DNA from: Escherichia coli
GTDB taxonomy: Bacteria > Pseudomonadota > Gammaproteobacteria > Enterobacterales > Enterobacteriaceae
DNA: 64,000 nt
NCBI RefSeq assembly: GCF_045037415.1
Contig: NZ_CP173438.1
Direction: 5' to 3' (one strand)
The notes beneath the pieces are model-generated. The model was given only the letters and a program-made list of their open reading frames with translations, was not told the origin of the DNA and made no database searches. How positions within the stretch are numbered: position 1 is the first letter of the stretch; every line of letters starts with the position of its first letter. Made by a program: the position numbers and the translations under genes. Below, piece after piece: positions 52,218 to 52,909 of this stretch.

Positions 52218-52322
52218 GGATATTTATCAGGATTTATCGGTTTCTGAGCCCTGGATATGTTTATCAGTTCCAGCCTGTTGCCTCAGGCTGCTAACAGGTC
52301 AATACAATCATGAGGATTATTT

Positions 52323-52595
52323 ATGGACAATAACACCATTTCTCTACAGGAGTTGCTCGACAGCATTTCCAGGCTTCGGGAAGACGTGAATACCCTTACC
52401 GTCGCCTTCTCATATCTGGCATTCTCAATTCCAAGGGAACAGATGCAATCAACGCTGGCATCAATCCAGTTTGAATCATGCAATCCCAAATGGTCTCAGG
52501 AACAACAAGACTCTTTCAGGCGGCTTGCTGTATTACTGGATGAAAAATATGCTGGTAAAATTACCATTTCGGCGGACTCTTCAGAGAACCCGTAA
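52323..52595 (+). CDS. hypothetical protein (90 aa), opposite strand inside lysis cassette
   Basis: GAGGA RBS 6 nt before ATG; 6-bp inverted repeat CCTGTT...AACAGG upstream; 3-prime end overlaps convergent 114-aa ORF by 35 nt. Confidence 0.45.
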   Translation: MDNNTISLQELLDSISRLREDVNTLTVAFSYLAFSIPREQMQSTLASIQFESCNPKWSQEQQDSFRRLAVLLDEKYAGKITISADSSENP

Positions 52596-52905
52596 TTATT
52601 CCCGGTAGTTTTCCTCTGTAGGTTATCAACACATCCTGCGCCTCTAAAATTACGGGGCGCTTTTCCGGCGACTGCTCATCCCCTTCACATAACCCGGCAG
52701 CAACATCCAGGAAGACCTGTCTGATGCTCCTTCTGGCTGCTGCCTCATAAAACTCCAGCGCGGCACCTTCAACACGGTCCAGCGAGATGTCCAGGTCAAA
52801 AATTTCACCGTCAAAGCGTTTTTTGTCCCGTAACGCTAAAGTTACCGTAACTTTATTCTCAAAATTGCGGATCCCTTTCACAATCAGTTCATAGTTTTGA
52901 GTCAT
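52561..52905 (-). CDS. hypothetical protein (114 aa) inserted between holin and endolysin
   Basis: GGGGAGAG RBS overlaps holin stop; ATG 5 nt after holin stop; no family recognised. Confidence 0.5.
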   Translation of the reverse strand: MTQNYELIVKGIRNFENKVTVTLALRDKKRFDGEIFDLDISLDRVEGAALEFYEAAARRSIRQVFLDVAAGLCEGDEQSPEKRPVILEAQDVLITYRGKLPGIITGSLKSPPKW

Positions 52906-52909
52906 TGAA

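What the first reader, a model, noticed from the sequence alone, without database searches (positions are those of the whole stretch)
52218..52909. Two-gene convergent insert between holin and endolysin
S and R are usually contiguous. Here a 114-aa gene follows S in the same orientation (its RBS overlaps the S stop) and a 90-aa gene lies on the opposite strand with a strong GAGGA RBS and an upstream inverted repeat (CCTGTT...AACAGG, a possible operator); their 3-prime ends overlap by 35 bp. Neither product matches a family I recognise. A self-regulated convergent pair inside the lysis cassette suggests a toxin-antitoxin-like, lysis-timing or defence moron.
Basis: partly seen in the sequence, partly recalled or inferred. 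Interest (0 to 1): 0.6.

Follow-up and report, generated by a model that had tools for sequence, protein, structure and literature searches.

The report
YdfR gene plus convergent small moron
The space between the holin and endolysin genes of this E. coli prophage holds two real, conserved genes of unknown function. One is a common YdfR-family late gene, whose K-12 relative binds RNase E; the other is a small opposite-strand gene that recurs as its convergent neighbour. Nothing shows they form a toxin-antitoxin or defence system.

Summary
The lysis cassette runs on the minus strand: holin S, then a 114-aa gene (52561-52905), then a convergent 90-aa plus-strand gene (52323-52595, 35-bp 3' overlap), then endolysin R.

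The 114-aa product belongs to a known family, DUF1327/YdfR (Pfam E 8e-43). YdfR-like DNA occurs in 4304 of 5426 complete E. coli genomes, and sits between S and R in every locus I examined. A 2026 paper reports that residues 1-72 of K-12 YdfR bind the RNase E catalytic half, and that its overexpression is not toxic.

The 90-aa ORF is a real gene:
- dN/dS is 0.24 in its own frame only.
- It is in phrog_2411.
- The whole two-gene spacer is present in 1128 genomes.
- It has no Pfam, NCBIfam or PADLOC match.
- It is predicted to be an acidic three-helix protein.

It is absent from otherwise near-identical loci, as a ~280-bp low-GC indel. Unrelated opposite-strand ORFs fill the same slot in other phages, so it behaves like a moron.

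The new point is that in other phage contexts distant homologues of the 90-aa gene again converge on short ORFs. These ORFs resemble the YdfR C-terminal module, which suggests a conserved convergent pair. Function is unproven. The toxin-antitoxin, defence and operator readings are not supported. Interest is modest.

The parts
52910..53125 (-). Holin S, 71 aa, class II (phage-21 type); a longer ORF extends to 53203
   Evidence: ORF list. PHROG holin families phrog_9876/phrog_20. PF04971 on the identical product and the PGAP name 'class II holin'.
52561..52905 (-). ydfR-family late gene, 114 aa; its SD lies in the last codons of S
   Evidence: Pfam DUF1327 E 7.9e-43. phrog_406 E 4e-68. dN/dS 0.24 in frame. 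Annotated 'YdfR family protein' in identical records.
52678..52905 (-). YdfR N-domain (codons 1-76): three beta strands plus a long helix. It corresponds to the K-12 YdfR residues 1-72 that bind the RNase E catalytic half.
   Evidence: AF2 model E5-14, E18-27, E31-43, H50-73. Alignment with K-12 YdfR. PMC13232886. dN/dS 0.20.
52564..52677 (-). YdfR C-terminal 'module 2' (codons 77-114, ...ILEAQDVLITYRGKLPGIITGSLKSPPKW). Its motif recurs at the C-terminus of the ORFs that converge on homologues of the 90-aa gene elsewhere.
   Evidence: dN/dS 0.36 in the non-overlap part and 0.48 in the overlap. Motif and phmmer ranking. hhalign P 0.003-0.008.
52323..52595 (+). 90-aa opposite-strand gene: acidic (pI 4.5) predicted three-helix protein of the phrog_2411 family
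   Evidence: dN/dS 0.24 in frame only, with no stops in 6 diverged alleles. phrog_2411 E 1e-58. 62 homologues, with the 90-aa length preserved. AF2 H8-35, H38-52, H59-77, pLDDT 73. pI.
52561..52595 (.). 35-bp overlap of the two 3' ends. Selection here follows the ydfR frame; the 90-aa tail evolves freely.
   Evidence: ydfR frame dN/dS 0.48, against sd 1 / nd 30 in the 90-aa frame. Residues 79-90 have pLDDT <50.
52312..52316 (+). GAGGA Shine-Dalgarno of the 90-aa gene
   Evidence: Sequence. Conserved in most alleles.
52271..52298 (.). Two short overlapping inverted repeats (CAGCCTG/CAGGCTG and CCTGTT/AACAGG). Not conserved, no T-run. No support as an operator or a terminator.
52280..52556 (.). 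Approximate extent of the indel relative to the PigCaeca_2 locus (S-ydfR-63 bp-R), which lacks the 90-aa gene. GC is 44.8%, against 54-55% for S and R.
   Evidence: Alignment. Annotation of L003. GC.
51684..52217 (-). Endolysin R (lysozyme family), with an N-terminal Gly/Ala-rich hydrophobic stretch that resembles a SAR domain
   Evidence: phrog_7 endolysin. PF00959. The SAR reading is from the sequence only and was not tested.
50547..51041 (-). Rz spanin, with embedded Rz1 lipoprotein ORF at 50636-50821
   Evidence: ORFs. 'Endopeptidase Rz' in the identical phage record.

Best explanation
The S-R spacer holds two functional accessory genes, not a toxin-antitoxin pair.

(1) ydfR (minus strand) is a late-operon gene. 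It is translated from the same Q-dependent transcript as S, R and Rz. Its N-domain is the DUF1327 beta-beta-beta-alpha domain. In K-12 YdfR this domain binds the catalytic half of RNase E, and the protein co-purifies with RNA. I infer that the product acts in the cytoplasm on RNase E or RNA during late lytic growth, not on the envelope.

(2) The plus-strand gene is a ~280-bp low-GC moron-type insert encoding an acidic three-helix protein. Its mRNA is entirely antisense to the late transcript that must read through it to reach R. I infer that the protein accumulates only when late transcription is off, in lysogeny, as with lambda bor. I also infer that it is shut off by convergent transcription and antisense pairing after induction.

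(3) The two are linked by descent. In other phage contexts, homologues of the three-helix gene also converge on a short late-strand ORF that resembles the C-terminal half of YdfR. I infer that the late product's C-terminal module binds or counteracts the three-helix protein, or acts on the same target. That would make the pair a lysogenic/lytic phase switch.

Shown: both genes are real, family membership, the indel, the recurrent pairing, and the absence of known TA or defence signatures. Inferred: the timing of expression, the RNase E link for this allele, and any interaction.
For: - Family: Pfam DUF1327 E 8e-43. PHROG families for both genes.
- Selection: dN/dS 0.24 for each gene, frame-specific. 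Module 2 is under constraint, and the overlap is constrained in the ydfR frame only.
- Spread: 4304/5426 E. coli genomes have ydfR-like DNA, and 1128 have the whole spacer. All 80 IMG/VR loci kept show the same S-ydfR-[90]-R order, where the locus extends far enough.
- Indel: loci with the same ydfR allele type lack the 90-aa gene. K-12 Qin has ydfR abutting rrrQ.
- Variable slot: other phages carry unrelated opposite-strand ORFs there.
- Composition: GC 44.8% for the insert, against 54-55% for S and R.
- RNase E: residues 1-72 of K-12 YdfR bind RNase E, the protein co-purifies RNA, and overexpression is not toxic (PMC13232886).
- Recurrent convergent partner: L008, L009, L019/L020/L110, L022, L025, L027. 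With the L008 partner as phmmer query, hits 2-7 among 1212 six-frame ORFs are an extended 211-aa YdfR and the five other convergent partners. A C-terminal I-x-G-S/D-L motif occurs in 5/1086 ORFs, and 4 of those are partners. hhalign of the YdfR profile against partners gives P 0.003 and 0.008.
Against: - No convincing sigma-70 promoter lies upstream of the 90-aa gene. The best candidate, TTGCCT-19-TACAAT, scores at about the 90th percentile of background and would remove the SD. None was found in four other contexts either.
- No expression data were found.
- Each gene occurs without the other. ydfR is alone in most genomes. Three-helix homologues sit alone in chromosomes and on IncF plasmids.
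- Partner homology beyond L008/L009/L025 rests on individually non-significant scores (E 1.9-3.4; hhalign probabilities <10%). The motif was defined after seeing the sequences.
- The RNase E data are for the K-12 allele, which lacks module 2.
Confidence: 0.55

Rival explanations
1. Two unrelated accessory genes that are merely neighbours. ydfR is a late gene and the 90-aa gene is an independent moron. The recurrent pairing reflects physical linkage: the 3' ends overlap, so they recombine as one block. There is no functional coupling.
For: Each gene is common without the other. The slot holds unrelated alternative ORFs in other phages. Partner similarity is statistically weak in the most distant contexts.
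Against: The pairing persists at 25-40% identity of the three-helix protein and in different genomic positions: the lysis cassette, the tail M/L junction, and near a terminase. Over that divergence an unselected partner ORF should have decayed. In L019 the overlap is only 7 bp, so the C-terminal motif there is not forced by the other strand.
Confidence: 0.25
2. A toxin-antitoxin-like, abortive-infection or superinfection-defence pair. One product is harmful or blocks phages, and the other neutralises it.
For: The pair is compact, convergent and conserved on mobile elements. The small acidic helical protein is a shape typical of inhibitors. The insert is very common in resident prophages (1128 genomes) but present in only 3 of 50,697 sequenced phage records.
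Against: No PADLOC, Pfam or NCBIfam match for the 90-aa product, and none but DUF1327 for the YdfR protein. The genes are convergent, not an operon. Orphans of both genes are abundant. K-12 YdfR overexpression causes no growth defect. No conserved operator.
Confidence: 0.1
3. A lysis-timing device. The two products tune the holin/endolysin clock, for example by limiting R expression through antisense RNA or by acting on the pinholin/SAR-endolysin pair.
For: The position between S and R. The plus-strand transcript would be antisense to the late mRNA just upstream of R. A Keio-collection screen cited in PMC13232886 (its ref. 79) flagged ydfR for envelope integrity.
Against: Neither protein has a membrane segment. 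Homologous pairs sit between tail genes and near terminase genes. Many phages with the same S and R lack the 90-aa gene, and K-12 Qin has a different YdfR tail.
Confidence: 0.07
4. The 90-aa frame is a chance ORF or acts only as an antisense RNA, not as a protein.
For: No recognisable promoter. No Pfam family.
Against: Frame-specific purifying selection with third-position bias and no stops across alleles 13-15% diverged over the ORF. Homologues down to 25% identity keep the 81-97 aa length and the same motifs. AFDB family members occur across Enterobacterales.
Confidence: 0.02

Closest known systems
YdfR of the E. coli K-12 Qin prophage (DUF1327, PF07041)
   Same: It has the same family, the same position between the class II holin (essQ; labelled essD in the record read here) and the lysozyme (rrrQ), and a closely similar N-domain over residues 1-76.
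   Different: K-12 YdfR (103 aa) has a different helical tail in place of module 2. It abuts rrrQ and has no opposite-strand neighbour. RNase E binding was shown for the K-12 protein only.
Opposite-strand lysogenic-conversion morons of lambdoid late regions (lambda bor / iss, lom; HK97 gp15) - from my own knowledge of the moron concept
   Same: It is a small extra gene between late genes that are adjacent in relatives. It has lower GC and lies opposite to late transcription. bor/iss sits just downstream of Rz in related loci.
   Different: No promoter or terminator could be identified for it here. The product is cytoplasmic and acidic, not a lipoprotein. It overlaps the 3' end of a late gene and comes with a conserved convergent partner.
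Phage 21-type lysis cassette (class II holin S21, SAR endolysin R21, Rz/Rz1) - from my own knowledge
   Same: The holin is PF04971, and the lysozyme has a Gly/Ala-rich N-terminal hydrophobic stretch. Rz has an embedded Rz1.
   Different: In phage 21, S and R are contiguous. Here 692 bp with two genes lie between them.
Type II toxin-antitoxin modules, and type I modules with convergent 3'-overlapping transcripts
   Same: Two small genes on a mobile element. The 3' overlap resembles some type I systems.
   Different: Both partners are selected proteins. There is no toxin or antitoxin fold, no operon, no conserved operator and no obligate co-occurrence.
Phage modulators of RNase E (T7 gp0.7, phiKZ Dip) - from my own knowledge

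Membership tests
DUF1327 / YdfR family (PF07041) | Significant match to the Pfam profile over the whole domain | tested here: met
   E 7.9e-43, model positions 1-91 of 93. phrog_406 E 4e-68.
DUF1327 / YdfR family (PF07041) | Location between a class II holin and a lysozyme in lambdoid prophages | tested here: met
   Same order in K-12 Qin, PigCaeca_2, NC101, PhiR5_1, Stx2 phage 86 and the 80 IMG/VR loci kept, where flanks were present.
DUF1327 / YdfR family (PF07041) | Binding of the N-terminal 72 residues to the RNase E catalytic half (reported for K-12 YdfR) | not testable with these tools
   Only sequence conservation of residues 1-76 could be checked. The experiment is in PMC13232886.
Moron (extra gene in a late operon) | Present between two genes that are adjacent or nearly so in related phages | tested here: met
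   The PigCaeca_2 locus has ydfR-63 bp-R. The indel spans about 52280-52556.
Moron (extra gene in a late operon) | Base composition different from the flanking genes | tested here: met
   GC 0.448, against 0.537 (S) and 0.551 (R). ydfR itself is 0.478.
Moron (extra gene in a late operon) | Own promoter and terminator | tested here: inconclusive
   No consensus promoter or intrinsic terminator for the plus-strand gene. Late-strand terminator-like hairpins follow the cassette in L019, L022 and L025, but not in the window.
Type II toxin-antitoxin system | Two co-directional genes in one autoregulated operon | tested here: not met
   The genes are convergent with overlapping 3' ends. The upstream inverted repeat is not conserved.
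Type II toxin-antitoxin system | Recognisable toxin and antitoxin domains | tested here: not met
   No Pfam, NCBIfam or PADLOC match other than DUF1327. Fold searches were non-specific.
Type II toxin-antitoxin system | Toxicity of one partner in the absence of the other | not testable with these tools
   Indirect only: K-12 YdfR overexpression gives no growth defect, and both genes are common as orphans.
Known anti-phage defence systems (PADLOC-DB v2) | Match to any defence-system protein model | tested here: not met
   0 families at E <= 1 for both proteins.
phrog_2411 small three-helix family (uncharacterised) | Full-length profile match and shared motifs (LR-DVN-L-VAFSYL ... FES-N ... QQ-SF) | tested here: met
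   E 1.1e-58 over 1-90 of 90. Alignments A3 and A7. Distant members also hit phrog_2411.

The most novel reading that the evidence does not exclude
The YdfR C-terminal module and the opposite-strand three-helix gene may form a previously undescribed mobile convergent two-gene cassette of enterobacterial temperate phages. It inserts into late operons: between S and R, between tail genes M and L, and near a terminase. In this reading the three-helix protein is a lysogen-phase effector, for example an exclusion or defence factor or a host-regulatory factor. The late-strand partner, together with the antisense late transcript, switches it off when the phage goes lytic. In E. coli lambdoid phages the partner is fused to an RNase E-binding domain.
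Probability: 0.15. Interest if true: 0.7.

Novelty: new member of a known kind. Interest (0 to 1): 0.35.

Why it matters
The pair sits in about one fifth of complete E. coli genomes, and ydfR-like DNA occurs in about four fifths, yet neither gene has an assigned role. If the YdfR N-domain really targets RNase E during late growth, it would be a widespread temperate-phage handle on host RNA decay. If the convergent pair is a lysogeny/lysis phase switch, it would add a small and very common accessory module to the list of prophage genes that change host behaviour. As it stands, the finding is mainly a correct description of two annotated hypothetical genes.

Tried and rejected
- A '44% identical' homologue named ybl58 (P0061) turned out to be the same DNA with two compensating single-base indels.
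- The inverted repeat as an operator was rejected. Such repeats are common in the region and the arms are not conserved.
- Promoter searches, both the tool's and my own weight-matrix scan, found nothing above background, and nothing in four other contexts.
- Rfam found nothing in the spacer.
- PDB sequence searches were empty.
- Foldseek against AFDB50 returned only uncharacterised family members.
- hhalign found no relation between the 90-aa family and the alternative opposite-strand ORFs of NC101, PhiR5_1 and phage 86.
- NCBIfam and PADLOC were empty.
- Literature searches by accession number, 'ybl58' and 'DUF1327' gave nothing useful, and a lysis-cassette/moron search was unspecific.
- A broad alignment was too divergent for the search for related loci. 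P0065 gave no viral loci. P0066 gave two loci, one of which I read and found to have the known M/L arrangement.
- A profile of module 2 alone gave only borderline E-values against partner ORFs.

Full report
**What is there.**
The lysis cassette runs on the minus strand. The genes, in order of transcription, are:
- Holin S at 52910-53125.
- A 114-aa gene at 52561-52905. Its GGAG ribosome-binding site lies in the last codons of S.
- Endolysin R at 51684-52217.
- Rz at 50547-51041, with an embedded Rz1.

A 90-aa gene lies on the plus strand at 52323-52595. It is preceded by GAGGA and its 3' end overlaps the 114-aa gene by 35 bp. The 1.7-kb region is 100% identical to phage vB_EcoS-783R2, and the 692-bp spacer to several E. 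coli chromosomes. In those records the two genes are annotated 'YdfR family protein' and 'hypothetical protein'.

**The 114-aa gene.**
It is a clear member of DUF1327/YdfR (Pfam E 7.9e-43; phrog_406). YdfR-like DNA is found in 4304 of 5426 complete E. coli genomes. It sits between a class II holin and a lysozyme in every locus I examined:
- K-12 Qin
- PigCaeca_2
- NC101
- PhiR5_1
- Stx2 phage 86

A gene between S and R is therefore the usual state in this lineage, not an oddity.

The family is modular. A conserved N-domain of about 76 residues is followed either by a short 'module 2' (...ILEAQDVLITYRGKLPGIITGSLKSPPKW in the window) or by other tails. Some forms carry long extensions, giving lengths of 176, 183, 211 and 268 aa.

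The only functional data I found are in PMC13232886 (RNA Biol 2026):
- Residues 1-72 of K-12 YdfR interact with the catalytic half of RNase E, both in two-hybrid assays and by co-purification.
- Strep-YdfR brings down RNA.
- Overexpression changes few transcripts and does not slow growth.

That paper also cites a Keio-collection screen that flagged ydfR for envelope integrity (its reference 79).

**The 90-aa gene is real.**
I compared six alleles. Those aligned position by position are 13-15% diverged from the window over the ORF. Nei-Gojobori dN/dS is 0.24 in the annotated frame. It is 1.0-1.5 in four of the other five frames. The remaining antisense frame shares third positions and gives 0.29, but it contains stop codons. 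Differences fall 100/79/244 on codon positions 1/2/3.

Sixty-two homologues were found, and most keep exactly 90 residues. A profile search of 1.84 billion representatives found only 21 proteins. Those of 81-97 aa with 25-40% identity share the same motifs.

The family is phrog_2411, of unknown function. It has no Pfam, NCBIfam, PADLOC or PDB match. AF2 predicts three helices with a disordered tail (pLDDT 73). The protein is acidic, pI 4.5. Fold searches return generic helical hits and uncharacterised Enterobacterales proteins.

**It behaves like a moron in a variable slot.**
- PigCaeca_2 has a near-identical ydfR allele, 63 bp of spacer, then R. The difference from the window is an indel of about 280 bp (52280-52556). 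It holds some 40 bp of upstream sequence and the ORF.
- Its GC content is 44.8%, against 54-55% for S and R.
- In NC101, PhiR5_1 and phage 86, different opposite-strand ORFs of 79, 86 and 104 aa fill the same place. They belong to three other PHROGs and show no relation to the 90-aa family by hhalign.
- The whole spacer is present in 1128 complete E. coli genomes and the 90-aa gene in 173 IMG/VR contigs, but in only 3 of 50,697 deposited phage genomes. All 80 IMG/VR loci kept have the same S-ydfR-[90]-R order, where the locus extends far enough.

**The recurrent convergent partner.**
In phage contexts, distant homologues of the 90-aa gene are again on the strand opposite to the late genes. Each again converges on, and slightly overlaps, a short late-strand ORF:
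- Citrobacter contig L008: partner ends ...KITGSLRAPIKL.
- L009: partner ends ...RIIGSLITPPEL.
- Atlantibacter prophages L019, L020 and L110, between tail genes M and L: partner ends ...QIFGDLKKPPSY.
- L027, also between M and L: partner ends ...GKLILRDGSLVSF.
- L022 and L023.
- Klebsiella L025, near the terminase: partner ends ...RLTGDILIPLES.

Three tests bear on whether the partners are related:
- With the L008 partner as a phmmer query against 1212 six-frame ORFs, hits 2-7 are the L009 partner (2e-6), a 211-aa YdfR (8e-6), the L025 partner (6.5e-3), and the L019, L022 and L027 partners (E 1.9-3.4).
- A C-terminal [ILVF]-x-G-[SD]-L motif occurs in 5 of 1086 ORFs, and 4 of those are partners. 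The motif was defined after seeing the sequences.
- hhalign of the YdfR profile against the L008 and L019 partners gives P 0.003 and 0.008. The second alignment spans YdfR residues 56-113. The L025 partner gives 0.21.

In the window, module 2 is under purifying selection (dN/dS 0.36). In the 35-bp overlap the ydfR frame is constrained (0.48), while the 90-aa tail changes freely, with 1 synonymous against 30 non-synonymous differences.

I read this as a conserved convergent pair: a YdfR-C-terminal-like late-strand ORF plus a three-helix gene. The statistical support is weak for the most distant cases.

Against obligate coupling, ydfR is usually found without the three-helix gene. Three-helix homologues also stand alone:
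- In chromosomes, between dinI and bssS in one enterobacterial contig, and in Sodalis ligni.
- On IncF plasmids, next to an autotransporter gene. In L028 a remnant, LPGRITASI, lies 500 bp away beyond an IS-like fragment.

**Regulatory claims.**
The CCTGTT/AACAGG repeat exists, but it is one of 15 short inverted repeats in 800 bp. It is broken in L014 and L015.

No sigma-70-like promoter precedes the 90-aa gene. The best candidate, TTGCCT-19-TACAAT, scores at about the 90th percentile of random windows and would start transcription inside the Shine-Dalgarno sequence. Nothing convincing precedes the homologues in four other contexts. Terminator-like hairpins on the late strand follow the cassette in L019, L022 and L025, but not in the window. 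Rfam finds nothing in the spacer. How the plus-strand gene is transcribed is therefore unknown.

**Most likely mechanism.**
ydfR is made with the lysis genes from the late transcript. By analogy with K-12 YdfR, it acts on RNase E or RNA in the cytoplasm.

The 90-aa gene lies entirely antisense to the late transcript that must pass through it to reach R. Its product can therefore accumulate only when late transcription is off, like lambda bor. It should be shut down by convergent transcription and RNA pairing after induction.

The conserved pairing suggests that the late partner's C-terminal module binds or opposes the three-helix protein. Only the gene reality, the family assignment, the indel and the recurrent pairing are shown. 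Timing, interaction and the RNase E link for this allele are inferred. My confidence in this picture is about 0.55.

**Rivals.**
- Mere neighbours with no functional link: 0.25.
- A toxin-antitoxin or defence pair: 0.10. Against it are the absence of any signature, the convergent layout, abundant orphans of both genes, and a non-toxic K-12 YdfR.
- A lysis-timing device: 0.07. Against it are the homologous pairs among tail and packaging genes.
- A chance ORF or an RNA-only function: 0.02. This is contradicted.

**Verdict.**
The 114-aa gene is a known, very common family in its usual place. The 90-aa gene is a real but uncharacterised moron-type gene. The conserved convergent pairing is a modestly new point that deserves an interaction test.

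Novelty: new member of a known kind. Interest: 0.35.

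Noticed in passing
window 55390-55725 (+): A 111-aa plus-strand ORF inside the minus-strand late region. Related loci have a 336-bp plus-strand gene annotated 'anti-adapter protein IraM' at the corresponding place. It would be a second opposite-strand moron upstream of the holin. I did not align it to those genes.
   Followed up: partly
window 53276-59385 (-): The late region has the Stx-phage layout: Q-like antiterminator 58564-59385, a 349-aa ORF that reads like a DNA methyltransferase 56939-57988, two tRNAs 56640-56889, and a SASA/NanS-p-like esterase 53276-55144 before S. 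I saw no stx-like ORFs between the tRNAs and the esterase.
   Followed up: partly
window 55751-55940 (-): Strong Rfam match to sRNA STnc100 (132 bits), between the tRNAs and the esterase gene in the late leader region.
   Followed up: no
window 61412-61587 (-): Rfam sok antitoxin RNA (120 bits), so a hok/sok type I toxin-antitoxin locus lies in the prophage early region. A related prophage is annotated with hokD.
   Followed up: no
window 18793-18978 (+): Adjacent Rfam hits to the isrK Hfq-binding sRNA and the C4 antisense RNA, suggesting a second phage-derived regulatory locus far from the lysis cassette.
   Followed up: no
window 11736-11829 (+): Tryptophan operon leader (93 bits). The window therefore includes chromosomal trp DNA as well as the prophage.
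   Followed up: no
window 51684-52217 (-) and 52910-53125 (-): The holin is PF04971 (phage-21 class II), and the endolysin begins with a Gly/Ala-rich hydrophobic stretch (YGLSAAVLALIAAGAPAP). This looks like a pinholin / SAR-endolysin cassette. It was read from the sequence only.
   Followed up: no
L017 4001-4279 (+): A 92-aa homologue of the three-helix protein is a stand-alone chromosomal gene between dinI and bssS in an unidentified enterobacterial contig. The RNase E gene lies three genes upstream, probably by coincidence.
   Followed up: partly
L029 3501-3770 (+); L028 2542-2811 (+): An 89-aa paralogue, named 'Ybl58' by some sources, lies downstream of an AIDA-type autotransporter gene. 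It was found on 75 E. coli plasmids, 70 of them predicted conjugative; the one examined is IncF. It is also chromosomal. L028 has a decayed YdfR-like remnant and an IS-like fragment nearby.
   Followed up: partly
L005 1938-2573 (-); L002 3071-3877 (-): Long YdfR forms of 211 and 268 aa carry a coiled-coil segment after module 2. This segment matches the N-terminal part of the short stand-alone partner ORF in L008, which suggests module shuffling within this family.
   Followed up: partly
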